From a virus (lineage: Duplodnaviria; Caudoviricetes): a DNA stretch of 64,000 bases. A model generated the notes under the pieces. The model saw only the letters and a list, made by a program, of their open reading frames with translations. It was not told where the DNA came from and ran no database searches. Each line of letters opens with the position of its first letter. The stretch's first letter is position 1. Shown here one piece after another: positions 2-55,236 of the stretch. The DNA lies in IMG/VR virus record IMGVR_UViG_3300013315_000010, positions 1,407-65,406 of that record; one strand, 5' to 3'. The position numbers and the translations under genes were made by a program.

Positions 2-1117
2 GGCAAGCCTATCCCCAACTCCCTTAAGAAGGGGCTCGGGATGGCTTTTGCAAAATTTGACCAGTACCAGCTGGCCAAGTACCGGGGTGAGGGTAAGTCC
101 CTCGGCCTGGTTGACCTGGCAAACCTGGTACACCCCCGGCCAACTGGCCGGAACGCTGAAGCGTTGACCCAGCTGGTCAACGGCACACTCCGGAGCACGG
201 GGACCTGGGAGTCCAAACTCTCCGCTGCCGGTAAGTCCGAGAACAAGGCCGAAGCAAAAGTCGAAGCCTGGCAGGAGCTGCTCGTGTCCGGACGCATCGG
301 GTACTTTGCCCTGCTCCGCAACCTGTGCAACATTGCAACCGATGCTCCCCACCTGATCGATCGGGCATGTGAGCTACTCACCAACGAGGCGGCAATTCAC
401 CGCAGCCTGGTGTTGCCCTTCAGGTTCAGCACAGCTTACACCCAGGTGGAAGGGCATGATCGTCGGCTTATTGTTGCCCTGAACAAAGCCGTTGACCTTT
501 CGTGCACCAACGTGCCCGACATGCCCAACAGCTTGGTGGTTGTAGACTACAGCTCCTCCATGGGAGAAGGCTACGACAGCAACAGAGGGAAAGGCACACT
601 CCTTGGAGCAGTGTTGGCCAAGCGGTCCAATGCAGACTTTATGATCTTTGGGGATAATGCAGCATACGTCCCCTACAATCCCGTGGACTCAACCCTAACA
701 CTGTGGGAAAGGTTCATGGCCAACAACCAAGGCTGGCAAAACAACATCTATTCAACCCAAAGGAAGTTCACCAACAAGTCCGGGGTTGGTGGTATAGAGG
801 TTGGTCACGGGACAAACTTCAATGACATCTTCGACACAGCCGCCAAGCCCTACGATCGCATCTTTGTCTTTAGCGATATGCAAGGGTGGCGTGGGGGTGG
901 AGCCCCCATACATGCCGTGGAGAACTACAAAAAGCGGCACAAGTGCAACCCGTTCATCTACTCCATGGACATGACAGGCTCGGGTACCATGATGTTTCAT
1001 CCAGGCAATGTTGCCGCCATCCCGGGGTTTTCGGAAAAGATCTTTGATCTGATTCGAGTCCTGGAGCAGGACAAGAATGCCTTGATCAAAAAGATCGAGG
1101 CAATACGGTTCGTATAA
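2..1117 (+). CDS. TROVE (Ro60/Rsr-like) + vWA domain RNA-binding protein, 5'-truncated by the window edge
   Basis: Frame is open from nt 2 (GKPIPNSLKKGLGMAFAKFDQYQLAKY). TROVE motifs KFDxYQLAKY and YFALLRNL are present, followed by a vWA MIDAS motif (VVVDYSSSM ... FVFSDMQ). Confidence 0.88.
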   Translation, partial: GKPIPNSLKKGLGMAFAKFDQYQLAKYRGEGKSLGLVDLANLVHPRPTGRNAEALTQLVNGTLRSTGTWESKLSAAGKSENKAEAKVEAWQELLVSGRIGYFALLRNLCNIATDAPHLIDRACELLTNEAAIHRSLVLPFRFSTAYTQVEGHDRRLIVALNKAVDLSCTNVPDMPNSLVVVDYSSSMGEGYDSNRGKGTLLGAVLAKRSNADFMIFGDNAAYVPYNPVDSTLTLWERFMANNQGWQNNIYSTQRKFTNKSGVGGIEVGHGTNFNDIFDTAAKPYDRIFVFSDMQGWRGGGAPIHAVENYKKRHKCNPFIYSMDMTGSGTMMFHPGNVAAIPGFSEKIFDLIRVLEQDKNALIKKIEAIRFV

Positions 1118-1118
1118 C

Positions 1119-1493
1119 ATGCGCCCCATTGAGATCGGGGAGGTTTATCAGATCCACTATGGCCCAAAGTACCTTAAAGCCTTTGGGCCTATTTACCATC
1201 ATCGTCACTGCCGGGTGATAGCCAAAGCTGCCAAGGGCCACAACTGTTTGGTGGTCCTTAAGGGTGGGACCAATGTCATCATCCCTGCAGGAAATCTGAT
1301 TCCATATTACCCGGGGATGATTGAGTCAGAGCACACTCATCGGACTGGCAAGTACGCCTTCAAGGTTCGAGTGTGGAATTGCTGTGAGAACCTTTGGGAG
1401 CTTTTGCTCTCCAGCCGGTACCCGGAGCGATATACCTGGAAGCCTGTTTGTCCAACGTGTGGATCAACAATCAAAGCGGAGAACAAAGTATGA
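1119..1493 (+). CDS. hypothetical protein with C-terminal CxxC
   Basis: 124-aa ORF immediately after TROVE; overlaps the next start (ATGA). Confidence 0.6.
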   Translation: MRPIEIGEVYQIHYGPKYLKAFGPIYHHRHCRVIAKAAKGHNCLVVLKGGTNVIIPAGNLIPYYPGMIESEHTHRTGKYAFKVRVWNCCENLWELLLSSRYPERYTWKPVCPTCGSTIKAENKV

Positions 1494-1642
1494 GTGACGA
1501 GACAGCGGACATCGAGATCGAGATCGAGATCGAACCTTCTGACGAGGAAACAGATGTTGATGACTTTGAAGATGGCGAGCTTGTGTTCTTTATCGCTGAG
1601 GTTGATGAGGATCAGGTAACTGATCTTTTCGATGACGATTAA
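1490..1642 (+). CDS. very acidic 50-aa protein (possible nucleic-acid mimic)
   Basis: ATG at 1490 overlaps the upstream stop. MSDETADIEIEIEIEP...DLFDDD has 24/50 D/E and no K/R. Confidence 0.65.
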   Translation: MSDETADIEIEIEIEPSDEETDVDDFEDGELVFFIAEVDEDQVTDLFDDD

Positions 1643-1658
1643 GTTTTATACATACTTT

Positions 1659-1807
1659 TCAAGTTCGGGGCGCAATGACGAGTTGTGCCCTCACGGATGG
1701 GTACCCGGGCAATCAACCTGCAGGGGTTGTGATGGTCAGGCAATTGTCAGATCTGGGTGGCATACCCGGGTGCGGGAGCTTTGGGTGGGGAATCCAAAGG
1801 AACTTGA
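1659..1807 (+). ncRNA. candidate structured small RNA (Y-RNA-sized, 4-way junction)
   Basis: Closing helix TCAAGTTC 1659-66 / GAACTTGA 1800-07. Arms: 1668-76/1682-90, 1701-09/1765-73 and 1779-86/1792-99. Lies 12 nt upstream of a tRNA-like gene. Confidence 0.55.
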
Positions 1808-1819
1808 TCAATTTCATAT

Positions 1820-1905
1820 CCCCGGGCATTGGGTATGTGGTGAACCCAAGTGGCTGTAAACCACCCGTTTCGGCTGTGCAGGTTCGACTCCTGCCCCGTG
1901 GACCA
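1820..1905 (+). tRNA. atypical tRNA-Tyr(GTA)
   Basis: Acceptor CCCCGGG/CCCGTGG, A73, encoded CCA. Anticodon loop CTGTAAA (GTA at 1856-58). Short variable arm CCG-TTT-CGG; T arm GCAGG-TTCGACT-CCTGC. Confidence 0.8.
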
Positions 1906-1988
1906 ATTAAAATTATTCTTGGGGTGAATACCCCCCTCCCCCTGTGGGACATTTTCAACAAGCAATTGTTACAGGTCCCATGGGATGA

Positions 1989-2022
1989 CCGGCGTGGGGT
2001 TAACCTCCTTCCCCCACGCCGG
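1989..2022 (+). other. 11-bp GC-rich hairpin with anti-SD-like loop
   Basis: CCGGCGTGGGG / CCCCACGCCGG stem; the loop contains ACCTCCTT. Confidence 0.6.
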
Positions 2023-2059
2023 ATTATCTATTTCGAAAAGCGGACATAAACGGGACACC

Positions 2060-2392
2060 ATGAAAAAACTATTTGTCATATTGCTGGTTTTGTTTGTCCT
2101 GTTTGGCCAGGCCCTGGCAGGGAGTCTCTCTCTTGCTTGGGATCATACCGGCACCCAGCCGGATGGGTTCAAACTTTTTATGCGCGAGAGCGGCAGGAGT
2201 TACAACTACTCCACTCCCGTGTGGACTGGGACAGCCAAGACCTGCACAATCACAAACCTTGCGGGTGGGGAAACTTACTTCTTTGTTGTCCGTGCTTTTC
2301 TCGGCACCGAGTCAAGTGTCAATTCAAATGAAGTGACATTCACAACCACACTCCCAGGTAAACCATCAGGGATCGGGTTATCCGATCAATAA
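2060..2392 (+). CDS. secreted fibronectin type III domain protein
   Basis: Signal peptide MKKLFVILLVLFVLFGQALA, then an FN3 pattern (LAWD...FKLF...TITNL...TYFFVVRAF...SNEV). Start is 2060 rather than the track's 1985. Confidence 0.8.
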   Translation: MKKLFVILLVLFVLFGQALAGSLSLAWDHTGTQPDGFKLFMRESGRSYNYSTPVWTGTAKTCTITNLAGGETYFFVVRAFLGTESSVNSNEVTFTTTLPGKPSGIGLSDQ

Positions 2393-2404
2393 CGGAGCAA
2401 GATT

Positions 2405-2668
2405 ATGTTTCTGATTTCGACACCTCAACCAGCAGCTGAGGTTGATCTTTTTGTCATCGACATCGATGGAACTGTACACAACAGTCCTCCCCAGGTTGAT
2501 GGATCTTTGGCTCGGTTGCACTTTGAGCTACCCAGCCTTTCCTTTGGTAACCACACAGCAACAGTTCGGGCCGTCAATGAGTGGGGGGACGGCCAGTGGT
2601 CGGACCCTTTCGACTTCGTCGTACAATTACCCTCCAAAGTTTCTGGGCTTGGATTGTCCGTGGATTAA
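2405..2668 (+). CDS. FN3/Ig-like small protein
   Basis: HTATVRAVNEWGDGQWSDP is an FN3 F-G strand pattern. Its C-terminus LPSKVSGLGLS resembles LPGKPSGIGLS of the upstream gene. Confidence 0.65.
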   Translation: MFLISTPQPAAEVDLFVIDIDGTVHNSPPQVDGSLARLHFELPSLSFGNHTATVRAVNEWGDGQWSDPFDFVVQLPSKVSGLGLSVD

Positions 2669-2708
2669 GGGGATCACCCTTTACCTACCTGAGAGTGTAG
2701 CCCATCGT

Positions 2709-2750: not shown

Positions 2751-2760
2751 CATAACACAC

Positions 2761-2838
2761 GCTCTCATGGACCAAACAGGCAAAGGTCACGAGACTTTCA
2801 ATCTCGGTGCGGCAGTTCAAGTCTGCCTGGGAGCACCA
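2761..2838 (+). tRNA. tRNA-Glu(TTC)
   Basis: Acceptor GCTCTCA/TGGGAGC, D stem GACC/GGTC, anticodon arm CGAGA-CTTTCAA-TCTCG, T arm GGCAG-TTCAAGT-CTGCC, encoded CCA. Confidence 0.92.
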
Positions 2839-2847
2839 TTAAAATTT

Positions 2848-2925
2848 GCGGGTATAGTCCAACTGGCAGGAGACAGCAGTCTTAGAAACTGAACAGTGGT
2901 GGTTCAAATCCATCTACCCGTACCA
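2848..2925 (+). tRNA. tRNA-Leu(TAG), no long variable arm
   Basis: Acceptor GCGGGTA/TACCCGT, anticodon arm CAGT-CTTAGAA-ACTG, T arm GGTGG-TTCAAAT-CCATC, encoded CCA. Confidence 0.9.
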
Positions 2926-2934
2926 TTCCTTCTT

Positions 2935-3010
2935 GCCACTGTAGCTCACCAGGTAGAGCCCCTGTCTTGTAAACAGGGGGTAGGGGGTTCGAGTCCTCCC
3001 AGTGGCTCCA
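2935..3010 (+). tRNA. tRNA-Thr(TGT)
   Basis: Canonical cloverleaf: acceptor GCCACTG/CAGTGGC, anticodon arm CCTGT-CTTGTAA-ACAGG, encoded CCA. Confidence 0.95.
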
Positions 3011-3037
3011 TCCTAAAATAACAATGCTTTTTATTTT

Positions 3038-36290: not shown

Positions 36291-36569
36291 TTACCATGGT
36301 TCCACCTCACACAGCATCTGAGCGGATTGAGTCAACTGTTCATTATAGTTGTTCAATTTACGGTAGAGTTGTTCCCGCGCAGAGCGAAGGGATTCTATAC
36401 AAGCCTTAATAGCATCAGCCGGGGACAAAAAAACCTCACCTTTATACCAACGTATCCTGTAATCGAGGAACTCGTGCAAGACGATCATTTTATCAGTGAC
36501 CGAAGCGATCTCGGCAGACAGAAGTTCAACCTTACCATCATCGGTTGCTTTGCACAAATAAGCTTTCAT
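36291..36569 (-). CDS. hypothetical protein
   Basis: 92-aa ORF coupled to the upstream gene. Confidence 0.6.
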   Translation of the reverse strand: MKAYLCKATDDGKVELLSAEIASVTDKMIVLHEFLDYRIRWYKGEVFLSPADAIKACIESLRSAREQLYRKLNNYNEQLTQSAQMLCEVEPW

Positions 36570-37192
36570 TGATCTTCCCCCTTTCCTTTCGGAACCTCAT
36601 CGTGAAAAATTGTTTGTTTAAACATTGCCCCGGATGCCGTGTGAAAAATCACCACACCCTCGGGGTTCATGTACCCTGGAGCAGCCACACTCCCAGTCAC
36701 CTGTAAAGACCAGAGGGTATGAATAATCTTCCCCTCATCAAACATCCCCTGGTAAAGGACAGGGACAACATGAACACCTGGTATCCTGGGCAAACCGTCT
36801 TTCCACCTGGTGGTATTGAACAAGCTGAATCGTTTTTCTTTCAAGCCATACTTTCGTTGGATGCCACTGCCCCACCATTCACCAAAGTGTCTGCCATGCC
36901 CAAGCTGGATTAAATCCGATGCATTCTGCTGCGCCCAGGAAGCAAATCCGTAGTTATCGTTTAGGGGTGTGACCCACCGAGACTTACTCCCAGCTGCCAG
37001 GTGAATACCATTCTCATCACACAGCCACGGGACCCCATCAGGTGGGGTCCCAAATAGATTGTCTGTGTCAGGATTGATGCCCAACTCATCCCAGATAAAG
37101 ATCTGGCCGTTGGTGCCATCAATCTTTTCCGTCACAATGATATCGCGCCTGAGCCGTGCGATCTTGGGGAAAGCAATGTATGTATCACTCAT
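36566..37192 (-). CDS. RNA ligase (Rnl2-like, ATP-dependent)
   Basis: Motif I EKIDGTN; GSKSR, FGEWWGSGIQ, FSLFN, VVPVLYQG, PEGVV and FK. Start at MSDTY (37192). Confidence 0.88.
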   Translation of the reverse strand: MSDTYIAFPKIARLRRDIIVTEKIDGTNGQIFIWDELGINPDTDNLFGTPPDGVPWLCDENGIHLAAGSKSRWVTPLNDNYGFASWAQQNASDLIQLGHGRHFGEWWGSGIQRKYGLKEKRFSLFNTTRWKDGLPRIPGVHVVPVLYQGMFDEGKIIHTLWSLQVTGSVAAPGYMNPEGVVIFHTASGAMFKQTIFHDEVPKGKGEDQ

Positions 37193-37909: not shown

Positions 37910-38509
37910 CTATTCCTCCGTAAAATTGGAACGGTATTGGTTGACGGTGTTGCACATACTGGTGTACATACCAGAAACCCCTTTTGTTGTTGCATCAAAG
38001 GACACAGTATTGATTGCCTTCATTCCCATGCTGGTGCCTACAGCCATAGCATCCTGGTTTGCACCAAGATAAATGAACTCCCACCCTTTCTGACCCTCCA
38101 GATCCTTGATCTTATCAAACACCTTTTCCCTACTCCACTCCTTTGAAGCATTCTCAAAACCATCTGTCATGATTGCCACGATGACTTTGCTGGCATCTGC
38201 TGCCGAGGTGATTGCCATGCCAATGGCATCATATAAAGCAGTAGCCCCCCGAGGGACATAGGTAAGGTTGGTAAGATCCGGAACCTTACTCAGGGGTGCG
38301 TCCTGGTGGACCACCTGGTACTCATGATCAAATAAGATCAAGGTAAGTGTAGGCTCACCCGGCAAGGCTTTTTGTTGAGCCAGAAAAGAGTTGAACCCTC
38401 CGATAACATCCTTCTCAATTCCGTGCATCGAACCACTCCGGTCCACCACTACAATAATCTTTTGAACAATTTCTTCCTTGCATTTTTCACAAATCATTTC
38501 TCTCTCCAT
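37910..38509 (-). CDS. von Willebrand factor A domain protein
   Basis: VVVDRSGSM MIDAS, GATALYDAIG, IMTDGFENAS, FIYLGANQDA. Confidence 0.9.
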   Translation of the reverse strand: MEREMICEKCKEEIVQKIIVVVDRSGSMHGIEKDVIGGFNSFLAQQKALPGEPTLTLILFDHEYQVVHQDAPLSKVPDLTNLTYVPRGATALYDAIGMAITSAADASKVIVAIMTDGFENASKEWSREKVFDKIKDLEGQKGWEFIYLGANQDAMAVGTSMGMKAINTVSFDATTKGVSGMYTSMCNTVNQYRSNFTEE

Positions 38510-39501: not shown

Positions 39502-39869
39502 TCTGTATCATTCTCCTTTTGTTCTGTTGGGGTTTTTACAACCCGCAGTGTTTTGATAAAGTTTCGTTTGGCTGCTTCAATGATCATCTGATCGAGTGGA
39601 ACTTGGGAAAGATCAATCCCGCCTTTGAACATGTCGATCAAGTTACGATGCCACTGTTGGAGTGTGGCCCATCGCTTCTGGTGGGACAGTCGTTCCTGAT
39701 ACTCATACCTGTCGAGAACCAGCTCGCAGGTGTCTGGATCAAGAGTAAACCCGTACACCTGTCGGGCCAGTTTATCCGACCTCTGTCGGATTACTTCTGT
39801 GCTGTTCATTTTTTCCTTACATGCTTTCCTAATGGTTTTGTAAGAGCCTCTTTCAAAGACAAACCGCAT
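39498..39869 (-). CDS. hypothetical protein
   Basis: 123-aa ORF within the operon. Confidence 0.55.
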   Translation of the reverse strand: MRFVFERGSYKTIRKACKEKMNSTEVIRQRSDKLARQVYGFTLDPDTCELVLDRYEYQERLSHQKRWATLQQWHRNLIDMFKGGIDLSQVPLDQMIIEAAKRNFIKTLRVVKTPTEQKENDTE

Positions 39870-40498
39870 TTTAACCTGCCATTCAATGTCGTTCTGTTTA
39901 TCTTGTACTTCAGTGCGACGTGAGTTTTACATAAACGCTCCCCGTCGAAAGGGTCTTCAACCCATGCAGTATTTCGTTTATTGAGCTCTTGCTCTGCAGA
40001 TGTCGCCCATCGAGCATTCCCGGGGCCGTAGTTTTTATTATTATCAGGTCTATCAATGCTCAAATCATCACTGGTTTTCTTTCCCATGTAATTTAAGAAT
40101 ACAGGAAAGAAGGCATCATCATCCCAGCATGGGTCAACCTTAATTCCTCTTCCTCCGTAGTATGGATAAGATGGATTATTTGGATCATTGCACCGAGCCC
40201 TCATGTTCCTAAATGTCTGGTACTCACGAGGATATTTTGTTGTCAATCCACCAGAGGATCTCAATAGACAACCACAACTTTTTACACTTCCTATATTCAA
40301 CTCTCTCGTCAGATATAAGGCTGTATTTCCACATGTACACAAACACTCCCAATAGGTTCTATTTGTACCCCTGGTTGGTGGTAAGAAAACGGATTTAATG
40401 ACAGTTAATCTCCCAAACGTTTTCCCGACTAAATTTTCTTTTATTTTACGCCCCCTCCTCTTCTTTTCCGGGCATACCTCAGACGTATCTTGAATCAT
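39806..40498 (-). CDS. free-standing HNH-type homing endonuclease
   Basis: GKTFGRLTV, WECLCTCGN, SCGC, MRARC..YGGRGIKV, SIDRPDNNKNYGPGNARWAT. Confidence 0.85.
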   Translation of the reverse strand: MIQDTSEVCPEKKRRGRKIKENLVGKTFGRLTVIKSVFLPPTRGTNRTYWECLCTCGNTALYLTRELNIGSVKSCGCLLRSSGGLTTKYPREYQTFRNMRARCNDPNNPSYPYYGGRGIKVDPCWDDDAFFPVFLNYMGKKTSDDLSIDRPDNNKNYGPGNARWATSAEQELNKRNTAWVEDPFDGERLCKTHVALKYKINRTTLNGRLKCGLSLKEALTKPLGKHVRKK

Positions 40499-41679
40499 CC
40501 TTTATACACTCCCATTGGGGTTAAAATCATGATCACCTTAAGCAAGCCAGCTTGTGCTTCGATTACTCCAGCGATCTCCTTGTACGCTTGAGGAGCTTCA
40601 TCCAATCCCGGGCTGTTGAAGGTGAAGATCCCGTGCATTGCTGCTTTCATTTGCTCAGGCGTGATCTTTTCCTTGGCTGCCGTTCTGGACATCGTTCGCC
40701 CAGCACCATGGCTACAAGATCGAAAGGACATTGCATCCGCTCGACCAAGGACAATGTAGCTGGGCGAGCCCATCGACCCGGGTATCACTCCCAGCTGGGT
40801 ATTGTTTGCACTGGTTGCCCCTTTGCGGTGCACCCAGACATTCTGGCCAAAGTGGAACTCAGATGCAGCATAGTTATGATGGATATCAATCCGGGTGAGC
40901 ACTCGAATATCGTTGCACTTTCGTAACGATAATGCCCTAAAAAAAGCCCGTTCGAACTGCTCCATGATGATACGCCGGTTTTCATGGGCATAGGCCAGGG
41001 CAAAGTTCATATCCCGGAGATATTCTTGCCCCCACAAAGAGCTGGTGGCGAGTGACTCCAACCCAGGGGGATCGTTTACCCCCTTTCCAGCCTTGGCCAA
41101 CTTTTGATAATGGGAGTGGATTGCCGCTCCCAGCCCACGTGACCCGGTATGGATCATCAGGTAGACCCTGTCATCGGTTCCCCGTTGGATTTCCATAAAG
41201 TGGTTGCCACCCCCCAGGGTCCCAAGACTTGCAACAACCCGGTCCCAATTTCTTTCGGTCAGCCATCCTGGTAGGTTTTGCTTGACCACTTCGGTGTACT
41301 CGTCCATGGTAGCCCAGTTGTAAGGGGTACTCAGATACACCCCGTTTCCGGCTGGCACCATGGCTGCAACGGTTGAGAACATAGTGTGCATGAGCTTGTT
41401 GTCCACAAGAGAGGCTGGACAGTTGGTTTGAATCACGCTCATCCCACACCCTATATCACTGCCCACCATGTTTGGACTTATGGCATCCTTGAGCGCTGCC
41501 ACTCCACCGATAGGCATCCCGTATCCAGCGTGAGCATCTGGCATCAGGGCAACGTGGTGGAAAGCTGCGGGGTGTTGTCTTAAATTTTGCACCTGCTCGA
41601 TCGTGGCTTGATCGAGTGTCTCAATTGGAATCCACGAACACAACGGAACACCAGGACCACTATCATATTTGAACATCAC
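40495..41679 (-). CDS. rtcB: RNA ligase RtcB (2',3'-cyclic phosphate / 5'-OH)
   Basis: MPDAH, VGSDIGCG, GGGNHF, HTGSRG, HHNY, HRKGA, IPGSMG, HGAGR and DEAPQAYK are all present. Confidence 0.95.
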   Translation of the reverse strand: MMFKYDSGPGVPLCSWIPIETLDQATIEQVQNLRQHPAAFHHVALMPDAHAGYGMPIGGVAALKDAISPNMVGSDIGCGMSVIQTNCPASLVDNKLMHTMFSTVAAMVPAGNGVYLSTPYNWATMDEYTEVVKQNLPGWLTERNWDRVVASLGTLGGGNHFMEIQRGTDDRVYLMIHTGSRGLGAAIHSHYQKLAKAGKGVNDPPGLESLATSSLWGQEYLRDMNFALAYAHENRRIIMEQFERAFFRALSLRKCNDIRVLTRIDIHHNYAASEFHFGQNVWVHRKGATSANNTQLGVIPGSMGSPSYIVLGRADAMSFRSCSHGAGRTMSRTAAKEKITPEQMKAAMHGIFTFNSPGLDEAPQAYKEIAGVIEAQAGLLKVIMILTPMGVYKG

Positions 41680-42212
41680 AGCTCCTTTATTTTAGGTTGA
41701 ATAATATCAATGTTGATCCTTATCAACTCCAGCTCCAGGTCATCGAGTGCCCCTTGATTCAAGATCCGGAAGTCCTCGGGCTTTCGCTCAACCCCAGCCT
41801 CACTCTTATGTGCCAGGATATCAGGTACACCATCCCGGTACACATGAAATAAGACCCCATGCTGGCGCACCCATTCAGCCTCGTTGTTGAATCGAACATC
41901 TGGAATAACTACCAGCGGGATGTCCCTTAGCTTAAGGAAAGCAACACGCAACCAGAAGTCATCTCGAACCGTCTCCCGGGCAAACTCAGTACCGAACTTT
42001 TGGTACACATACCTGGGGCTCACTCCCCAGAAAGGATCAACGACCTCTTTAAGTTCCCCGAACCCGTGACGATCATCCCACCCGAACAGTGGGTTGACCG
42101 TGCTTTTAATCGGATCGGCAAAGGCATAGCGGTGGAACCCGCGCTTCATAAAGAATGAAGCGCAGGTATCCTTTCCACTGCGAGCTTTACCGGCAAGGCC
42201 GATGATAAACAA
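41676..42212 (-). CDS. deoxynucleoside monophosphate kinase
   Basis: IIGLAGKARSGKDT, FADPIK, QKFGTE, DVRFNNE, HKSE. Confidence 0.9.
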   Translation of the reverse strand: MFIIGLAGKARSGKDTCASFFMKRGFHRYAFADPIKSTVNPLFGWDDRHGFGELKEVVDPFWGVSPRYVYQKFGTEFARETVRDDFWLRVAFLKLRDIPLVVIPDVRFNNEAEWVRQHGVLFHVYRDGVPDILAHKSEAGVERKPEDFRILNQGALDDLELELIRINIDIIQPKIKEL

Positions 42213-48279: not shown

Positions 48280-50289
48280 CTATCTTATGCGTTTTAATTC
48301 CCCATAATTGGGGCCAATTTCAAATTCCCCTCCCAGCGGAAGGTTAAAGTTAATCCCCCAGAAGCTGTGCATCAGCTTCGGCAGATCTCGAAACGTGTTG
48401 ACAGTGATATCGGCTACAGTATCAACCTCGTCCTTGACCAGGTCGAACACGATGGAATCGTGAACCTGAAGAAATAAAAGGGATTGGCAACCAGCCTGTC
48501 GCATCCGTTTCTTGATAACCACCATTGCCAGGGGAGTGATGTCAGCCGTGGCGAAGCTTTGAACCGGGTAGTTTTTAATAGCGGTTATGCTGTAAACATT
48601 CCCGTCCCGGTCTGCGTTTGCAAGCCTGGGAAACACCAGCTTGCGACCGGACGGCGTTTGGAGCCACCCACCTTGTTTCTCTACCAGCTCAATGTTGTCT
48701 TGCTGCCACTGCTGCAGGACCTGATACTTCTCATAATACCCTTGAACAATTCGAACCCACTTTGGCAGGGAAAAGTTGGGCATGGTCTGATCCATGTACA
48801 TCCCGTAAGCAGACCCACCGTAAAGCAACCTGAACCCGAACACCTTTGCAACAGTTCGAATGGGCTTGAACTTTGGGTGATCGTTGTCAAGCTTTGGATT
48901 GGCACCAAAGAACTGGATGGCGTTATCCCTATGGTAATCAACGTTGTCGATGATTTCTTGCATAGCTACAGGGTCCTGGGACATCCAGGCTGCAACACGC
49001 CACTCAAGTTGGCTTAAATCCCCGTTACCAATAAGATCGAATCGAGGAACAAAGATCGTCTTGACGGGGGAAGTGCCCTTCCGTGGCCAGTTCTGGCCGT
49101 TGGGGTTGCTCGAACTCAAGCGACCGGTTGCAGTAACCGTCTGGTTAAAGCTCGGGTGCACTCGATGATCCGGCATCAGTTTGCCCAAAATTCCAGAGTC
49201 ATCCTGATCCCCCCTAAAGGTCTCAGCTGCCTTTGATGCTGTGCTGTGCTCCTTGAGCAGGGTCAAGATCTTCTTCTGTCTGTCGGTCTCACCCTTTAAT
49301 TGTGAGAGTGTGTTTTTGTCTGTGCTATAAAAGCCTCCTTTCTCTAACTCAGTGTTGTCGATTGGTTTAAATATGCGGGGCAACTCAATCTCCTGAATTG
49401 CCCTACGGGTTTTGGTTATTGGTTCTTGGACAACTACATTTCTCCACTTGACAGTCGTTCCCTTTTTAGGATCAGCATAGGTAAAGGGGTATGCTTCCCG
49501 CTTGGTGACATTGTGGGTTGTCTGGTAGGACTCCAGGTACTCCCGCTTGATCACTCCCCCATACAAGGCAGCAGACAACTCGTTAGTGCTCCCCAGGTTC
49601 AGATCATCGCGGCCTATCTCAAGCTTTAACTCAACCTCCAGTGTGTGGATCTTTTCTTCCAGGGAACTATGAAGTGCATTGGCTTTTTCCACATCGACCA
49701 AGGCACCTGCACTCTCCATCTCTGAAAGGATATTCATCAGGTCCATCTGGAGGGCTACAATCCGTTGCATCTTCCACTTGGAAATAATGGGGACTTGACG
49801 CTGGTAAAGGACCAGAGAGTTGATGCAATCTTGCTCAAGGTACGGGGTCAGAACAGATAGAGGGATTTCGTCTGTCTCGTACCCGGCATCCCAAAAGATC
49901 TTCACCCTGTCGATCTTTGGCGTGATACTGTACCTTAGGCAAACATCAGCCAAGTGATAACTGACCTTGGCTTGCCCTTGAATTAAGTATTCAGCTACCT
50001 GGGTGCAGTAAAACTTTTGGCGATCCACTCTCAAGCCAGCATGACGCAACCACTGCAGGTCAAACTTGAGATTGTGGCCCACAATCCTGTGGGCCTTATC
50101 CAGCTCACTTTGGATCTCGGCAAGGACTTGCCGTTGGTTTACCCCCTGGGCTTCCTTGTGGTTAAGCGTCCAGGTCTTCACCCGCTTGTCTTCCCATGCC
50201 ATACCCACACTCACAAGAAACGACCCTGGATGCCATGGTCGGAAACGTGGAATCTTGCTGGTCTCCACGTCAAGTGCCAGAGTTATCAT
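48280..50289 (-). CDS. polA: family A DNA polymerase with 3'-5' exonuclease
   Basis: Exonuclease motifs LDVET, HNLKFD, YLEQD; TATGRLSS; motif A DLSQLE, motif B KVFGFRLLYG, motif C VHDS. Confidence 0.95.
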   Translation of the reverse strand: MITLALDVETSKIPRFRPWHPGSFLVSVGMAWEDKRVKTWTLNHKEAQGVNQRQVLAEIQSELDKAHRIVGHNLKFDLQWLRHAGLRVDRQKFYCTQVAEYLIQGQAKVSYHLADVCLRYSITPKIDRVKIFWDAGYETDEIPLSVLTPYLEQDCINSLVLYQRQVPIISKWKMQRIVALQMDLMNILSEMESAGALVDVEKANALHSSLEEKIHTLEVELKLEIGRDDLNLGSTNELSAALYGGVIKREYLESYQTTHNVTKREAYPFTYADPKKGTTVKWRNVVVQEPITKTRRAIQEIELPRIFKPIDNTELEKGGFYSTDKNTLSQLKGETDRQKKILTLLKEHSTASKAAETFRGDQDDSGILGKLMPDHRVHPSFNQTVTATGRLSSSNPNGQNWPRKGTSPVKTIFVPRFDLIGNGDLSQLEWRVAAWMSQDPVAMQEIIDNVDYHRDNAIQFFGANPKLDNDHPKFKPIRTVAKVFGFRLLYGGSAYGMYMDQTMPNFSLPKWVRIVQGYYEKYQVLQQWQQDNIELVEKQGGWLQTPSGRKLVFPRLANADRDGNVYSITAIKNYPVQSFATADITPLAMVVIKKRMRQAGCQSLLFLQVHDSIVFDLVKDEVDTVADITVNTFRDLPKLMHSFWGINFNLPLGGEFEIGPNYGELKRIR

Positions 50290-50849
50290 GGCATCTCAAT
50301 ACCTGGACAATCCTTGTAGAATTCAAACGCGGTCTTGAACCACTCAAACCGGTCTTTCTTTAGGGCTGCCGTGCCCACGTTCCAGGGTTGAGGAAACATC
50401 AAGACATGACCACCGGCCTTGGTGAATGCCTCAAGGTTGCCAGGCTTATCATCAATAAGCAGGGTGGATCTGGAAGCTGCCGCCCACTTTGCAGGACCGA
50501 TCAGATATCTCTTGTCATGAAAGTAGTCGGGCATGTTTTTCATGATCCAGTGCTGCCTCCACCCGGCATTGTTCAGAGTTGGTGCCGTTGCGATGATCGG
50601 CTTGTATGGCTTGAGCATCTCCAGCAACTCTTCAGCCCATGGGTACATGGGCAGACTCATCCAAAAATCCTCCCCCTGACGTTTCCAGAACCCTGACCGG
50701 GTATCCCCGGTCTTTTCCATGTAGATCTTTTCAATGGAGTTGTATTCAAGCAGCGAGTTATCCAGTACACCAAGATCAAAGTACTTGATGACTGCGCCAC
50801 AGTAGTCAATCACAACACCATCCAGATCGAGCAAAATTCTATTGATCAT
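50286..50849 (-). CDS. HAD 5'(3')-deoxyribonucleotidase
   Basis: LLDLDGV ... LLIDD..N...PQPWN. Real start MINRIL at 50849. Confidence 0.85.
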   Translation of the reverse strand: MINRILLDLDGVVIDYCGAVIKYFDLGVLDNSLLEYNSIEKIYMEKTGDTRSGFWKRQGEDFWMSLPMYPWAEELLEMLKPYKPIIATAPTLNNAGWRQHWIMKNMPDYFHDKRYLIGPAKWAAASRSTLLIDDKPGNLEAFTKAGGHVLMFPQPWNVGTAALKKDRFEWFKTAFEFYKDCPGIEMP

Positions 50850-51708
50850 CCTTTTCAGCCTCCTGAAAATCGTAAGCCATGCACACACCCCCGTTTTTAA
50901 AGTATGCTGTGGTGTGAGTGTCCCGGGCGAACTCAGCACGGCGGCGAGCCTCGGCACGGCCAACCTTCCGCAGGAAGATATCACCTGCATCCTTGTTGCA
51001 CTTGCTGACCCCGATGTGGAACTTTCCATCAGTTGACTTGAGCTTGCAGATCACCCCTTTGGGTTGCCCATTCTTGCCGATAATGGTTTCAAAAGTGACA
51101 TACTCCCGGGTGGCATGGGGAGGTTCTGCAAGAGAATCGGAAGACACCTTTTCGAGTTCACTGGCAATTGCTTGCCAGCCTTTGTGATTTGGAAAGTCTA
51201 CCACTATCTGATTGGTGTGGAGACTGGCGATAGTGCCAACATCACCATGTTTGACATATCCCCAACCACGGGCTGGGGAGGTCACACTCTCTTTGACCCG
51301 AACTTTATCCCCGACTTTGAAAGGGTGAGGGGTCTCCGATAATGTGACATTGACAACCTCAAGCTCATCGGCGGGAGCATACCAAACACTCTGACATGCC
51401 CAAGAAACCTCCACCATGTTGCCCTCGATGCTGGTAACAGTTCCAATATCCCCCGGCTTAACCGCTCCCCAGTCAAGAGAGGGCCTCACTCCGGCCTTGA
51501 CACGGACACGGTCTCCAACGCTGATGGGCGAAGACACAACTTCCAGGTCATGCTCGTTGTAGTAGTCGCTTCCATTATTAGGAGAGTAATAGCCATCCTC
51601 GATGCACCGTTGAACAGTCACTACATCCCCAATATTATGTTCAGCCGAACATATGTGTTTCCCAACCGTTTTATCTTTGATTCTTACCAGTGACCCATTC
51701 TTTATCAT
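50839..51708 (-). CDS. tandem SH3-like (Mib/HERC2-like) repeat protein
   Basis: Repeats VGDRVRVK..W..VKPGDIGTV and VGDKVRVK..GWG.VKHGDVGTI..VDF..W..SELE. Confidence 0.65.
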   Translation of the reverse strand: MIKNGSLVRIKDKTVGKHICSAEHNIGDVVTVQRCIEDGYYSPNNGSDYYNEHDLEVVSSPISVGDRVRVKAGVRPSLDWGAVKPGDIGTVTSIEGNMVEVSWACQSVWYAPADELEVVNVTLSETPHPFKVGDKVRVKESVTSPARGWGYVKHGDVGTIASLHTNQIVVDFPNHKGWQAIASELEKVSSDSLAEPPHATREYVTFETIIGKNGQPKGVICKLKSTDGKFHIGVSKCNKDAGDIFLRKVGRAEARRRAEFARDTHTTAYFKNGGVCMAYDFQEAEKDDQ

Positions 51709-52944: not shown

Positions 52945-52947
52945 CTC

Positions 52948-53238
52948 TTACTTTGTCCCCTCCTTTACCTCCCGCTTTAGATGCCGGTGTTTTTTGGGTT
53001 GCCACTTGACTATCGCGTACAAGCGGTTGATCAGGGGCTGGGCGAGCTCGGCGTAAAGTGGCCTGAACATTGCCCGGCCCGACTGGTACTTGTTGCACCC
53101 CCGCACCATATTGGCTGGAGGTCTTTCCCGCAGCTCGATATGACCATCCTTGGTCACCTCGGCTCGGATAACGGTGCAATTGCGATTGGTGCACAGGTTG
53201 CACACGTCAACGGTTCGGTTCAAATAGATATCGGTCAT
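52948..53238 (-). CDS. Cys-rich hypothetical protein
   Basis: MTDIY start after AAAGGAG; CNLC...C...C. Confidence 0.6.
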   Translation of the reverse strand: MTDIYLNRTVDVCNLCTNRNCTVIRAEVTKDGHIELRERPPANMVRGCNKYQSGRAMFRPLYAELAQPLINRLYAIVKWQPKKHRHLKREVKEGTK

Positions 53239-53307
53239 GGTTCTCCTTTGGATCAGCATTAAGAGTTCGTAACGGTGAATTCAAAAAAATATCCCCTCCT
53301 TAACCCT

Positions 53308-53335
53308 ATTATAATTACGATTTCGTAATTGTCAA
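53308..53335 (-). promoter_or_regulatory. consensus sigma70 promoter of the replication operon, with the operator as its spacer
   Basis: Minus strand reads TTGACA-ATTACGAAATCGTAAT-TATAAT. Confidence 0.85.
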
Positions 53336-53339
53336 TGGA

Positions 53340-54158
53340 CTAAGCAGCCTTTTGGGTGATGGGCTTGGGTAAAAACACCCTCAAGCCCATAGTCCTGGAC
53401 ATCTTGACCACCAGCTCGGACACCATCTTGATCATCTCAGTGGTGAGACTCCACGCGGCCCTCTTGCCCGAGGCTTTGTAGGCATCGTCCAGCTTGGTGG
53501 ACACCATCTCCTCGATGAAGTTGATGGCTGACAGGGTGATGTTGTCAAAGTTGTCACGCAAGTTGTCAACCCCAAGATCCTCTTTGAGCTTTTCAGCTGT
53601 CTTGCCGAATAAGGCAAGGTAGGTGATGTTGGTTGCAGTGGCATACCTCCACGCTGCACCAAAGGCACCGTTGCGTCCGATCATAGAGGTGAACCGGTTT
53701 CTGCCAATGGTGCTGATGATCCGGTTATAGATCCAGTCCTCTGGACGACCCTGCTTGCGGTAAAACTCCTGGGCTCTTTCCTGGGCGCGAGTGAGGCCCA
53801 GGTCCGGGTTGGCCATCTCCTCGAACCGTTCCTTGATCACCTGGTTTGCCCAGATGTGGAACTCAGGGCTGAGGTACTTGGCATAGGCAAGGGCAATCTG
53901 CCAGTGAGCCCAGGTGCCCCCCCACCTGCCCATGGCTGTTTTCAAAGTTGATTGTGGATCAACTTTCAACTTTTTAGCGTTGGCCTTGATAAATCGAACA
54001 GTATCCTGTTGGCGTAACCAGAAGGTAGGCTTTCTTGCCAGAATCACCCCGGCATCCGGTTCATCCCGCTGCCAGGCCCTCCACATGTTGGTTAGGTTGA
54101 CCATTTTTGTACCCTGCTGGAACTGAATCTCGAACCCCTCATAAATCATACTGTCCAT
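53340..54158 (-). CDS. KilA-N domain protein (antirepressor-like)
   Basis: VNLTNMW, WLRQQDT, GGTWAHWQIALAYAKYLSPEFHIW. Confidence 0.9.
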   Translation of the reverse strand: MDSMIYEGFEIQFQQGTKMVNLTNMWRAWQRDEPDAGVILARKPTFWLRQQDTVRFIKANAKKLKVDPQSTLKTAMGRWGGTWAHWQIALAYAKYLSPEFHIWANQVIKERFEEMANPDLGLTRAQERAQEFYRKQGRPEDWIYNRIISTIGRNRFTSMIGRNGAFGAAWRYATATNITYLALFGKTAEKLKEDLGVDNLRDNFDNITLSAINFIEEMVSTKLDDAYKASGKRAAWSLTTEMIKMVSELVVKMSRTMGLRVFLPKPITQKAA

Positions 54159-54174
54159 AAAAATGCTCCTTTCA

Positions 54175-54215
54175 TAGTAAGATAATAGTAAGATATTTAT
54201 CCCTTAAGGGATAAA
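54175..54215 (-). promoter_or_regulatory. perfect 20-bp palindrome and tandem repeat upstream of the KilA-N gene
   Basis: TTTATCCCTTAAGGGATAAA at 54196-54215; TAGTAAGATA at 54175 and 54186. Confidence 0.5.
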
Positions 54216-54219
54216 GTTG

Positions 54220-55236
54220 TTAATGATCTTGTGAGCGTAAAATTTCCTTGAGGATGATCCGCGCCAGCATCTCATCCCAGTACCCCTGATCAATATGCTT
54301 GGGCAAAAGAGAGGCTGTGGCCAGGACCTCAACCTGGTCCATCAACGACTCCAAAGCCGGGGCAACCTCGGTAATAAAGTCCATCTCACCTGCCTTAATT
54401 TTCCGCAGGGTGGTGCTATCCCATAGTGGGTACACCAGGTCACCCGTTTTAAAAATTTCCTCCATCTGCCTGGCAGCCCGAAACGCATGACTTACCGCTT
54501 TCCAGTCAATCCCCTGGTTCGCTTTTGCCAACTTCGCCCGGTGCCCATAGCCCTCTTGTACTCTCTCCAGGGATCGGAGTATTTCAGATACTCGAATCGT
54601 TTCGTGAAATCTCTTACCGCAGACTTCAAACGTTCGATGAGGGTTGAGATCTGATGGATCAACCTTATGCAGATGATCACCTCCAGGAAGATAATTCCAA
54701 ACATCACCAAGTTTAGGGGAATTCCCTCCATGTGCTTTTTCAACCTCCTTTAAAAAAGAGATAACCCGATCAATGGCATCCAGTCGAGAACCCTTGATGC
54801 CATACTTTGCCGCTTGTTTCCGGGCATACCCTACAAACGCCCTCATGTCTGTGCTGTATGCCTTGGAACGGTTGGCATGCAGGATCTCCCAAATGGGGGT
54901 GGACACATTGCACTGGCCCGGTTTGATGTGAATCATATCCATGGACACGGTATCCCCCTGGCAGAGCAGGTGGAGAAAATAGTGCAAGCTGTACACCTCG
55001 ATGTCGATGTCATCCGGGGCATTCTTGGCTCCCTCTGCCGTGGACTTCTTGCTCCCCCACGAGTAAGTCCGTGGGATCTTGCCGGTCAGGATCTGCTGCA
55101 CTGTAGGCATGTATACCCCCTTGAAATCTCGATCCGATGCAGGGGTATCTGTGCCATACAGGTGAGACCCAAATGGGGCGAACATGATCAGCTCCCCAGG
55201 CAACCCCAACCTTTCAATCAGTTCGTGCTTTTGCAT
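54220..55236 (-). CDS. RlaP-like Pol-beta nucleotidyltransferase (T4 nrdC.11-like)
   Basis: FGSHLYGTDTPASDRDFKGVY, YSLHYFL, GKQAAKYG-like motif (RKQAAKYG), DWKAVSHAFR. Confidence 0.85.
   Translation of the reverse strand: MQKHELIERLGLPGELIMFAPFGSHLYGTDTPASDRDFKGVYMPTVQQILTGKIPRTYSWGSKKSTAEGAKNAPDDIDIEVYSLHYFLHLLCQGDTVSMDMIHIKPGQCNVSTPIWEILHANRSKAYSTDMRAFVGYARKQAAKYGIKGSRLDAIDRVISFLKEVEKAHGGNSPKLGDVWNYLPGGDHLHKVDPSDLNPHRTFEVCGKRFHETIRVSEILRSLERVQEGYGHRAKLAKANQGIDWKAVSHAFRAARQMEEIFKTGDLVYPLWDSTTLRKIKAGEMDFITEVAPALESLMDQVEVLATASLLPKHIDQGYWDEMLARIILKEILRSQDH

What the first reader, a model, noticed from the sequence alone, without database searches (positions are those of the whole stretch)
2..55236. 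Phage-encoded multi-component RNA repair kit: TROVE/Ro60, RtcB, Rnl2-like ligase, RlaP-like nucleotidyltransferase and replacement tRNAs
Seen in sequence: a TROVE-vWA gene (2-1117) heads a small-RNA/tRNA cluster, and the same genome carries RtcB (40495-41679), an Rnl2-like ligase (36566-37192) and an RlaP-type Pol-beta nucleotidyltransferase (54220-55236). Established knowledge: RtcB joins 2',3'-cyclic-phosphate/5'-OH ends, Rnl2 joins 3'-OH/5'-P ends, and bacterial rsr/Y-RNA/rtcB loci act in tRNA damage repair. Inference: a ~64-kb phage carrying both ligase chemistries plus a Ro-like chaperone may counter host anticodon nucleases or toxins. I found no Pnkp-like end-healing enzyme, so the Rnl2 substrate is unclear; the HAD at 50286 or RlaP might supply healing.
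Basis: partly seen in the sequence, partly recalled or inferred. Interest (0 to 1): 0.82.

Follow-up and report, generated by a model that had tools for sequence, protein, structure and literature searches.

The report
Phage RNA-repair genes, separately acquired
A 65-kb temperate phage really does carry a Ro60 protein with its Y RNA, an RtcB ligase, a minimal ATP-dependent RNA ligase, an RlaP nucleotidyltransferase and four tRNAs, but they sit at four separate loci, are inherited independently among relatives, and all belong to families already described in phages.

Summary
All four proteins are real. Each Pfam match is above its cut-off, and RtcB keeps every catalytic motif. The ligase has motif I KxDG, and RlaP has the Pol-beta GS...DxD motif. 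TROVE is cut by the window edge; the full gene is about 502 aa.

The cognate Y RNA was missed. A YrlA-like permuted-tRNA RNA lies about 110 nt upstream of TROVE on the same strand, just outside the window. Two other TROVE phages show the same layout.

The genes are not one module. They lie at four loci. The syntenic 67-kb relative keeps RtcB and RlaP at the same positions and has 21 tRNAs, but it lacks TROVE and the ligase. More distant capsid relatives have none of the four.

Among five other TROVE phages, RtcB is in 0/5. Among three phages with the short ligase, RtcB and TROVE are in 0/3, and the ligase sits in DNA replication or metabolism gene neighbourhoods.

No Pnkp-like healing enzyme was found. 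The HAD protein is NT5C-like, and the kinase beside RtcB is a dNMP kinase.

Such combinations are already described for jumbo phages, and phage Ro60/Y RNA has been characterised. I rate this a new member of a known kind, of modest interest. Function is inferred, not shown.

The parts
1..1117 (+). 3' part of the Ro60/TROVE-vWA gene. The full CDS is genome 1015 (or 1009) to 2523, equal to L001:1015-2523, about 502 aa. Its YrlA-like Y RNA lies upstream at L001:797-903, which is window -609 to -503 and so outside the window.
   Evidence: Pfam TROVE E 6.5e-12. Two TROVE stretches in one 504-aa open frame. Match to the solved Thermus phage Ro60 (9kop), E 4e-17, with the MIDAS motif DxSxS aligned. 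YrlA (RF02553) scores 30.8 bits over the full model and is the best hit in the genome. The MFE fold reproduces the V, T, AS and D arms.
1820..1905 (+). tRNA-Tyr (GTA), type II, with encoded CCA, C1:G72 and a C3.U70 mismatch.
   Evidence: ARAGORN. Rfam tRNA scores only 25 bits. The anticodon and T arms are conserved with the tRNA-Tyr of relative G001, whose acceptor stem differs but is fully paired.
2761..3010 (+). tRNA-Glu (TTC) at 2761-2838, tRNA-Leu (TAG) at 2848-2925 and tRNA-Thr (TGT) at 2935-3010.
   Evidence: ARAGORN. Rfam tRNA scores 51.7 to 61.4 bits.
36566..37192 (-). Minimal ATP-dependent RNA ligase of 208 aa. It is a nucleotidyltransferase domain only and belongs to the Rnl2/Rnl5-like clade.
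   Evidence: PF09414 above cut-off. PHROG 548. Motif I TEKIDGTN, and EGVVI...FKQT. More than 7,900 short homologues with invariant K23, D25 and G26. AlphaFold2 pLDDT 92.8. Foldseek top hits are T4 Rnl2, TbREL1 and Naegleria RNA ligase.
40495..41679 (-). RtcB 3'-phosphate/5'-OH RNA ligase, 394 aa.
   Evidence: PF01139, E 4.8e-100, full length. The active-site motifs align with P. horikoshii RtcB: MPDAH-GYG, DIGCG, GNHF, HTGSRGLG, HHN and CHGAGR. A syntenic orthologue at 49% identity is present in G001.
54220..55236 (-). RlaP-family Pol-beta nucleotidyltransferase, 338 aa.
   Evidence: PF10127 at 41.4 bits against a cut-off of 23. PHROG 388, E 1.5e-82. The GS-x10-DRD motif is present. A syntenic orthologue at 50% identity lies between primase and KilA-N in G001.
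41676..42212 (-). dNMP kinase directly upstream of RtcB. It is not a polynucleotide kinase and is listed only to exclude it as a healing enzyme.
   Evidence: PF21448 DNMK, E 1.6e-20. PHROG 139, E 3.4e-50. T4 dNMP kinase 1dek, E 6e-9. Absent from G001.
50286..51029 (-). HAD phosphatase of the NT5C (deoxyribonucleotidase) type next to PolA. It is listed only to exclude it as a likely RNA 3'-phosphatase.
   Evidence: NT5C at E 4.7e-5, just below cut-off. PHROG 2643, 5'-3' deoxyribonucleotidase; the PNK PHROG matches only at 1.2e-4. PDB 3bwv, a putative 5'(3')-deoxyribonucleotidase, E 6.7e-4. Conserved beside PolA in G001.

Best explanation
This 65.4-kb temperate, T7-like phage has an integrase, family A DNA polymerase, endonuclease I and a T7-type portal. 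It carries several RNA end-joining and RNA quality-control functions of already known families. They were acquired and are inherited separately, not as one kit.

Layer 1 is the lineage core, RtcB and RlaP, embedded in the leftward replication and nucleotide-metabolism operon. RtcB would directly reseal 2',3'-cyclic-phosphate or 3'-phosphate plus 5'-OH breaks. Those breaks are left by metal-independent host ribonucleases such as anticodon nucleases, HEPN and toxin RNases, and Cas13-type effectors. RlaP would add back one or two nucleotides to trimmed 3'-OH ends.

Layer 2 is accessory to this phage. A YrlA-like Y RNA plus Ro60 and four tRNAs sit in the variable tRNA island ahead of the structural genes. 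The Ro60-Y RNA particle would bind damaged or misfolded RNAs and/or capture host PNPase. The tRNAs would top up depleted or rare species.

Layer 3 is also accessory. It is a 208-aa ligase consisting only of the nucleotidyltransferase domain, at the far end of the leftward operon. It would seal 3'-OH/5'-phosphate nicks in duplex RNA or RNA-DNA, such as breaks left by metal-dependent nucleases or ends extended by RlaP. On that reading no Pnkp-type healing is needed.

Shown here: gene identities, catalytic motifs, the Y RNA architecture and position, and the distribution among relatives. Inferred: every activity, every substrate and the counter-defence purpose.
For: - Identities and motifs.
- Y RNA. 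It is the full-length and best genome-wide YrlA hit, 111 nt before the TROVE start on the same strand. The MFE fold gives a closing stem, T arm, GAAA-capped acceptor-like hairpin and canonical D arm, with z = -2.4. ARAGORN calls no tRNA there. YrlA hits also lie upstream of TROVE in Xanthomonas phage Tabio (52 and 37 bits) and Streptomyces phage BRock (33 and 32 bits). This fits the rule of Chen et al. 2014 of same strand and within 4 kb (PMC4201824).
- Lineage core versus accessory. tblastn synteny with G001 finds RtcB, RlaP and the HAD protein among more than 30 shared genes in the same order. TROVE, the ligase, the dNMP kinase, the HNH protein and the 199-aa vWA protein are absent.
- G001 holds 21 tRNAs at the equivalent site.
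- The RlaP product is a 3'-OH end, which suits 5'-phosphate ligases but not RtcB (PMC12776372, Discussion).
- Phage combinations of RtcB, Rnl, RlaP, TROVE and tRNAs are interpreted in the literature as repair of RNase damage (PMC7824862, section 3.4.9).
Against: - No expression or activity data exist, and no sequencing run could be listed.
- The components are scattered across four loci, so cooperation is not indicated by gene order.
- The YrlA score of 30.8 bits is below Rfam's gathering score of 69. tRNA arrays elsewhere give partial hits of up to 28.5 bits. No close relative was available for covariation analysis.
- The only biochemical study of a phage Ro60 found attenuation of host PNPase, not help with repair (PMC12135203).
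- In other phages the short ligase sits among DNA replication genes without any other RNA-repair gene.
- CTA is the rarest Leu codon in the phage at 6%, so codon supplementation is also a reasonable reading for the tRNA-Leu(TAG).
- The host is unknown.
Confidence: 0.6

Rival explanations
1. The Ro60-YrlA particle is not a repair scaffold. It is a device that captures host polynucleotide phosphorylase in a RYPER-like complex. That would damp degradation of phage RNA or interfere with PNPase-dependent host defence, independently of RtcB, RlaP and the ligase.
For: - Thermus phage phiLo Ro60 binds two upstream Y-like RNAs that carry a CGAA motif. It forms ternary complexes with host PNPase and slows PNPase by about 70-76% in vitro (PMC12135203).
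- The protein here matches that structure (9kop, E 4e-17), and its YrlA contains UUCGAAU.
- TROVE phages lack RtcB in 5 of 5 cases checked.
Against: - The in vitro result comes from one thermophilic phage whose Ro60 shares only about 24% identity with this one.
- No infection data exist for any phage Ro60.
- In Salmonella, rsr-yrlBA is co-transcribed with rtcBA (PMC7790460), so a link to repair remains possible.
Confidence: 0.3
2. The 208-aa ligase serves DNA replication or recombination rather than tRNA repair. It would seal nicks whose 3'-OH side is ribonucleotide, such as Okazaki or ribo-patch junctions.
For: - Homologues at 42-49% identity sit among DNA replication and metabolism genes in other phages. 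In Mycobacterium phage Tucker the gene lies between RNR and ThyX near DNA polymerase I. In Caulobacter phage CcrBL9 it lies near polymerase, Dda helicase and dNMP kinase. In Rhizobium phage RHph_Y1_10 it lies near a methylase, RusA and a replication protein.
- None of those three phages has RtcB or TROVE, and only CcrBL9 has a distant RlaP gene.
- The nearest folds, T4 Rnl2 and Naegleria RNA ligase, are nick-sealing enzymes. From established knowledge, they require a ribonucleotide 3'-OH in a duplex.
- No DNA ligase was detected in this T7-like replication module.
Against: - It matches the RNA-ligase Pfam and PHROG families, not DNA-ligase families.
- Here it lies at the distal end of the operon, 11 kb from the polymerase, among accessory genes that are absent from G001.
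Confidence: 0.3
3. The four tRNAs are ordinary codon-usage supplements, and their co-residence with repair genes is incidental.
For: - The tRNA island is a variable region: 4 tRNAs here against 21 in G001 at the same position.
- tRNA-Leu(TAG) reads the phage's rarest Leu codon.
- TROVE embedded in a tRNA array is also seen in Streptomyces phage BRock.
Against: - Tyr, Glu and Thr codon use in the phage is unremarkable.
- The host codon usage is unknown, so the test is incomplete.
- The literature also supports phage tRNAs as decoys or replacements for cleaved host tRNAs (PMC10264068).
Confidence: 0.35
4. RtcB acts on the phage's own transcripts. [quoted passage not shown]
For: - Two Hammerhead_II hits lie on the same strand, at 56.3 bits and 37.1 bits (gathering score 37). 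Both have intact CUGAUGA, GAAA and GUC cores and identical core flanks.
- From established knowledge, hammerhead products are exactly RtcB substrates.
Against: - The relative G001 keeps RtcB but has no hammerhead.
- Perreault et al. 2011 looked for spliced or circular products from clustered prophage hammerheads and detected none (PMC3088659).
- Host RtcB, if present, would make a phage copy unnecessary.
Confidence: 0.05

Closest known systems
Phage RNA-repair gene sets described by comparative genomics (Burroughs & Aravind 2016; Iyer et al. 2021, jumbo phages, PMC7824862 section 3.4.9)
   Same: The component families are the same: RtcB and/or ATP-dependent Rnl ligases, the RlaP nucleotidyltransferase, occasional Rot/TROVE with a tRNA-like RNA, and phage tRNAs. 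As noted there, any combination of ligases can occur in one phage.
   Different: That description is for genomes over 200 kb. This is a 65-kb temperate T7-like phage. No polynucleotide kinase or phosphatase accompanies the ATP-dependent ligase here. The ligase is the NTase-only short form, not canonical Rnl1 or Rnl2.
Bacterial rsr-yrlBA-rtcBA operon (Salmonella; PMC7790460, PMC4201824)
   Same: Ro60, a YrlA-type tRNA-mimic Y RNA and RtcB are all present. YrlA lies next to rsr on the same strand.
   Different: In the phage, Ro60/YrlA and RtcB are about 40 kb apart on opposite strands. There is no RtcA or RtcR. The two parts are inherited independently among relatives.
Thermus phage phiLo Ro60 with Yrl1/Yrl2 (PMC12135203; PDB 9kop, 9l5y)
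   Same: A phage-encoded TROVE-vWA protein with Y-like RNA containing a CGAA motif, encoded just upstream.
   Different: Identity is only about 24%, and a single YrlA was detected here rather than two. The phiLo genome is 178 kb. Binding to PNPase was not tested here.
T4 Rnl2 and Naegleria/Deinococcus Rnl5 nick-sealing RNA ligases
   Same: The adenylyltransferase fold and motifs I, IV and V are shared. These are the closest solved structures (Foldseek E 1e-5 to 1e-4).
   Different: It lacks the Rnl2 C-terminal domain and the Rnl5 N-terminal domain. TM-scores are only 0.45-0.55, and the profile match to T4 Rnl2 is marginal (E 0.04).
RlaP (PF10127), characterised from Pseudomonas (PMC12776372); T4 NrdC.11 is a viral member
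   Same: The family match and the Pol-beta catalytic motif are shared.
   Different: It is not adjacent to an RNA ligase gene here. It lies between primase and KilA-N. About 190 C-terminal residues fall outside the Pfam match.

Membership tests
RtcB (PF01139) | Full-length match to the family model above the curated cut-off | tested here: met
   336 bits against a cut-off of 27, covering model positions 1-426.
RtcB (PF01139) | Metal-binding Asp/Cys/His residues and the GMP-accepting histidine (CHGAGR) | tested here: met
   The alignment to P. horikoshii RtcB 1uc2 conserves MPDxHxGYG, DIxCG, GNHF, HTGSRGLG, HN and CHGAGR.
RtcB (PF01139) | GTP- and Mn-dependent joining of 3'-P or 2',3'>P ends to 5'-OH ends | not testable with these tools
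   Needs biochemistry.
Ro60 / TROVE | TROVE HEAT-repeat ring domain | tested here: met
   PF05731 at 45.8 bits against a cut-off of 23 in the window part. Two stretches in one 504-aa frame. Match to phage Ro60 9kop, E 4e-17, over residues 21-377.
Ro60 / TROVE | C-terminal vWA domain with a MIDAS DxSxS motif | tested here: met
   VVVDYSSSM aligns to the DxSxS motif of 9kop. Pfam vWA_Ro60 scores only 17.6 bits, below its cut-off.
Ro60 / TROVE | Cognate Y RNA encoded nearby on the same strand | tested here: met
   A YrlA-like RNA lies 111 nt upstream on the same strand.
YrlA (Rfam RF02553) | Score at or above the gathering threshold of 69 bits | tested here: not met
   30.8 bits, with E 2.6e-6 for the genome. 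Other phage YrlA candidates next to TROVE score 32-52 bits.
YrlA (Rfam RF02553) | Permuted tRNA-like domain (V, T arm, acceptor-like hairpin, D arm) enclosed by a terminal stem | tested here: met
   Full-length model alignment and an independent MFE fold. The T loop is UUCAAAU and the D arm is GCUC-AGCUGGGA-GAGC.
YrlA (Rfam RF02553) | 5' GNCGAAN0-1G Ro-binding motif | tested here: inconclusive
   The sequence has CUUCGAAUU. The CGAA core is present but the leading G is missing.
Rnl2-type RNA ligase (PF09414) | Covalent nucleotidyltransferase motifs (motif I KxDG lysine; motifs IV and V) | tested here: met
   TEKIDGTN, EGVVI and FKQT are present. K23, D25, G26, E178, G179 and K192 are invariant across 47 homologues.
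Rnl2-type RNA ligase (PF09414) | Rnl2 C-terminal domain needed for the RNA-adenylylation step | tested here: not met
   The protein ends about 15 residues after motif V. It matches only positions 30-218 of the 341-position PHROG 548 profile. The downstream 92-aa ORF has no family hit and is not conserved next to homologues.
Rnl2-type RNA ligase (PF09414) | Fold closest to Rnl2 among ligases | tested here: inconclusive
   T4 Rnl2, TbREL1 and Naegleria Rnl5 all match with E 1e-5 to 1e-4 and TM 0.45-0.55. There is also a weak hit to TIGR02306, the DraRnl family.
RlaP (PF10127) | Family model above cut-off, plus the Pol-beta hG[GS]x9-13DxD motif | tested here: met
   41.4 bits against a cut-off of 23. 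FGSHLYGTDTPASDRDF is present.
RlaP (PF10127) | Gene neighbourhood with an RNA ligase (the origin of the name) | tested here: not met
   It is 12.5 kb from RtcB and 17 kb from the short ligase, flanked by primase and KilA-N. The placement is the same in G001.
Pnkp-type end healing (polynucleotide kinase / 3'-phosphatase) | A P-loop polynucleotide kinase and/or an RNA 3'-phosphatase or 2H/metallophosphoesterase | tested here: not met
   The P-loop kinase next to RtcB is a dNMP kinase. The HAD protein is NT5C-like. No other candidate appeared among about 70 ORFs scanned. Small structural ORFs were not scanned with Pfam.

The most novel reading that the evidence does not exclude
The phage's RtcB works on the phage's own ribozyme products. 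Two same-strand type II hammerheads in the early operon share identical core flanks. [quoted passage not shown] RtcB could circularise it, regenerating a chimeric hammerhead at the junction and giving a stable circular early mRNA in a bacteriophage.
Probability: 0.04. Interest if true: 0.85.

Novelty: new member of a known kind. Interest (0 to 1): 0.33.

Why it matters
A compact 65-kb phage combines six RNA-related features. These are a Y RNA/Ro60 particle, RtcB, RlaP, a minimal ATP-dependent ligase, four tRNAs and two self-cleaving ribozymes. That would make it a convenient natural system for asking what each RNA-repair or quality-control component contributes during infection.

The comparison with its 67-kb relative gives a ready-made natural contrast. 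That relative has the same RtcB and RlaP but 21 tRNAs, no Ro60 and no ligase. The concept itself is already published, so the value lies in an example and in the evidence that the components are modular rather than an obligate kit.

Tried and rejected
- The look-up of sequencing runs listed no run and no RNA holder. Read laying was therefore not used, and there are no expression or junction data.
- A megablast of the first 20 kb against phage records found nothing.
- The search for related loci gave no relatives with DNA polymerase or RlaP as query. With RtcB as query it gave only distant fragments.
- No YrlA hit was found near the two closest TROVE homologues, L003 and LR745206. Covariation support for the Y RNA could not be obtained.
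- phmmer of the ligase and of RlaP against PDB sequences gave nothing. The ligase profile gave only E 0.04 to T4 Rnl2.
- Candidate partner genes gave nothing. The 124-aa ORF after TROVE, the 169-aa and 92-aa ORFs flanking the ligase, and the conserved 234-aa and 123-aa ORFs flanking RtcB have no informative family. The 124-, 169- and 92-aa ORFs also have no homologue beside TROVE or the ligase in the other phage loci compared.
- The 'nucleotidyltransferase' next to the ligase in Caulobacter phage CcrBL9 is not similar to this RlaP.
- I rejected the HAD protein as a Pnkp-like phosphatase and the dNMP kinase as a polynucleotide kinase.
- The 1659-1807 structured element as a second Y RNA was examined. 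It folds well (z = -2.97), but it has no CGAA motif, no Rfam hit and no relatives. It is left open.

Full report
**What the window is**

The window is bases 1407-65406 of a 65,406-bp IMG/VR viral record. The record is classed as linear, with a CheckV completeness of 98%.

The rightward arm carries the tRNA island, then the terminase, a T7-type portal/adaptor, the major head protein and an internal virion protein. After these come a 2,784-aa LPD38-containing protein, a holin and an integrase.

The leftward arm (about 36.3-62.5 kb) is an early and replication arm. It encodes regulators, DUF932, primase, a DnaB-like helicase, family A DNA polymerase, an exonuclease, endonuclease I, dUTPase, a class II-like RNR and a dNMP kinase. 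This is a temperate T7-like phage. Weak hints point to an alphaproteobacterial host.

**Checking the observation**

All four named proteins are real.

- **TROVE.** PF05731, E 6.5e-12. The window cuts the gene. The full frame is genome 1009-2523, with a GGAGG-GTG start at 1015. It matches the solved Thermus phage Ro60, with the vWA MIDAS DxSxS motif aligned.
- **RtcB.** The match is full length, E 4.8e-100. It keeps every active-site motif of P. horikoshii RtcB, including the GMP-accepting CHGAGR histidine.
- **RNA ligase.** It has motif I TEKIDGTN and motifs IV/V. It passes PF09414 and PHROG 548, but covers only the nucleotidyltransferase part of those profiles.
  - It belongs to a very large family of 177-260-aa proteins, with more than 7,900 hits. 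The catalytic Lys, Asp and Gly are invariant across the 47 aligned.
  - A confident AlphaFold2 model (pLDDT 92.8) is closest to T4 Rnl2, TbREL1 and the Naegleria Rnl5 ligase, at TM 0.45-0.55.
  - It is therefore Rnl2/Rnl5-like but lacks the accessory domain of either.
- **RlaP.** It passes PF10127 and PHROG 388 (E 1.5e-82) and has the GS-x10-DRD Pol-beta motif.
- **tRNAs.** Four are present: Tyr, Glu, Leu and Thr. The odd tRNA-Tyr is homologous to the tRNA-Tyr of the nearest relative. Their acceptor stems differ, and the relative's is fully paired.

The Y RNA is not in the window. Rfam's YrlA model gives a full-length hit at genome 797-903. It scores 30.8 bits, with E 2.6e-6 for the genome. 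It lies on the same strand as TROVE, 111 nt before the TROVE start. The next-best hits in the genome are 10-bit fragments inside true tRNAs.

ARAGORN sees no tRNA there. The sequence reads as a permuted tRNA:

- an 8-9-bp closing stem;
- a small V hairpin containing UUCGAAU;
- a T arm, GUGGG-UUCAAAU-CCCAU;
- an 8-bp acceptor-like hairpin capped by GAAA;
- UA, then a canonical D arm, GCUC-AGCUGGGA-GAGC.

An unconstrained MFE fold returns exactly this architecture, with z = -2.4.

The score is below Rfam's gathering value of 69. However, YrlA hits of 52, 37, 33 and 32 bits lie in the same place, upstream and on the same strand, next to TROVE in Xanthomonas phage Tabio and Streptomyces phage BRock. 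This is the positional rule reported by Chen et al. 2014 (PMC4201824). I accept it as the Ro60 partner with fair confidence. Covariation could not be tested for lack of close relatives.

A perfect sigma-70 consensus promoter at genome 148-175 could drive this block.

**Is it a kit?**

The genes occupy four loci:

- YrlA-TROVE and the tRNAs at the left end, on the plus strand;
- the ligase at 36.6 kb;
- RtcB at 40.5 kb;
- RlaP at 54.2 kb, the last three on the minus strand.

The closest relative, G001, is 67 kb with 58% capsid identity. It is collinear over more than 30 genes. It has RtcB (49% identity) and RlaP (50%) at the same positions. It carries 21 tRNAs where this phage has four. It has no TROVE, PF09414 ligase, dNMP kinase, HNH protein or 199-aa vWA protein. 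Four more distant capsid relatives have none of the four genes.

| Starting set | RtcB | RlaP | PF09414 ligase | TROVE |
|---|---|---|---|---|
| Five TROVE-bearing phages | 0/5 | 2/5 | 3/5 | all, by selection |
| Three phages with the short ligase | 0/3 | 1/3 | all, by selection | 0/3 |

In the three short-ligase phages the ligase lies among DNA replication and metabolism genes.

So RtcB and RlaP are an inherited pair in this lineage. Ro60/YrlA and the ligase are separate add-ons at the distal ends of the two arms. It does not speak against each part having an RNA-repair role.

**End healing**

I found no Pnkp-like enzyme. The P-loop kinase overlapping the RtcB start is a T4-type dNMP kinase. 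The HAD protein is NT5C-like and conserved beside PolA in G001.

Healing may simply not be needed. RtcB takes cyclic-phosphate/5'-OH ends directly. A nick-sealing ATP-dependent ligase takes the 3'-OH/5'-phosphate ends left by metal-dependent nucleases (established enzymology; inference for this phage).

RlaP's product is a 3'-OH end, which fits the ATP-dependent ligase but not RtcB. The authors of the RlaP preprint raise this point themselves (PMC12776372). Yet the conserved partner of RlaP in this lineage is RtcB, and that remains unexplained.

**Comparison with what is known**

- Iyer et al. 2021 describe jumbo-phage combinations of RtcB, Rnl1, Rnl2, RlaP, occasional TROVE with a tRNA-like RNA, and tRNA arrays. 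They interpret them as repair of RNase damage (PMC7824862).
- RlaP has been characterised biochemically (PMC12776372).
- A phage Ro60 with upstream Y-like RNAs has been solved and shown to bind and attenuate host PNPase (PMC12135203).
- RtcB occurs in 698 phage records, TROVE in 97 and the short ligase in 82, out of 50,697.

What is mildly unusual here is that all of these sit together in a small temperate phage, and that the ligase is the bare NTase form. I rate it a new member of a known kind.

**Side observation**

Two type II hammerhead ribozymes with intact cores lie between small early ORFs on the minus strand, at 61866-61796 and 60254-60179. Their products would be RtcB substrates.

Clustered hammerheads near integrases in prophages are known. 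Circular products were sought without success by Perreault et al. 2011 (PMC3088659). G001 has RtcB but no hammerhead. I keep the RtcB-ribozyme link only as a low-probability novel reading.

**Limits**

- Co-occurrence rests on a handful of genomes rather than a corrected survey.
- All activities are inferred from family membership.

Noticed in passing
L001:797-903 (+), i.e. window -609 to -503, outside the window: A YrlA-like Y RNA (permuted tRNA mimic) lies 111 nt upstream of the TROVE start. It scores 30.8 bits against Rfam RF02553 over the full model and is the best hit in the genome.
   Followed up: yes
window 61796-61866 (-) and 60179-60254 (-): Two type II hammerhead ribozymes (56.3 and 37.1 bits) sit in intergenic gaps of the early leftward operon. 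Both have intact cores and identical core flanks. The predicted cuts at 61837|61836 and 60221|60220 would release a 1,616-nt RNA. None was found in five relatives.
   Followed up: partly
window 1659-1807 (+): A ~150-nt four-way-junction fold lies between the acidic small ORF and tRNA-Tyr (z = -2.97, 0 of 200 shuffles as stable). It has no Rfam family and no CGAA motif. Three CCCGGG palindromes occur in and around it. It could be a second small RNA or a processing element.
   Followed up: partly
L034:2077-6420 (G001:C1:62077-66420): The syntenic relative carries 21 tRNA genes where this phage has four tRNAs plus YrlA and Ro60. The tRNA island ahead of the structural genes is therefore a hot spot for exchange.
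   Followed up: partly
window 39806-40498 (-): An HNH endonuclease (PHROG 374, E 6e-55) overlaps the RtcB stop and is absent from G001. It is probably a homing-endonuclease insertion.
   Followed up: partly
window 37910-38509 (-): A stand-alone 199-aa vWA protein (PHROG 7371, E 1.4e-63) lies between the ligase and RtcB and is absent from G001. Its function is unknown.
   Followed up: no
window 1490-1642 (+) and 1119-1493 (+): Two ORFs directly follow TROVE: a 50-aa strongly acidic ORF (an EIEIEIE run, Asp/Glu-rich) and a 124-aa Cys/His-containing ORF. Neither has a family match or a conserved counterpart next to other TROVE genes.
   Followed up: partly
L001:148-175 (+): A perfect 12/12 sigma-70 consensus promoter (TTGACA-16-TATAAT) lies at the left end of the record, upstream of a 94-aa ORF, YrlA and TROVE.
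   Followed up: no
window 25398-33752 (+): A 2,784-aa protein has a C-terminal LPD38 domain, is partly conserved in G001 (34% identity over 861 aa) and is probably an ejected polyvalent virion protein.
   Followed up: no
window 2061-2392 and 2405-2668 (+): Two small ORFs lie inside the tRNA island. The first has a signal-peptide-like N-terminus and a weak, below-cut-off fn3 match when read from the upstream start at 1985; the second has no family match. Both are absent from G001.
   Followed up: no
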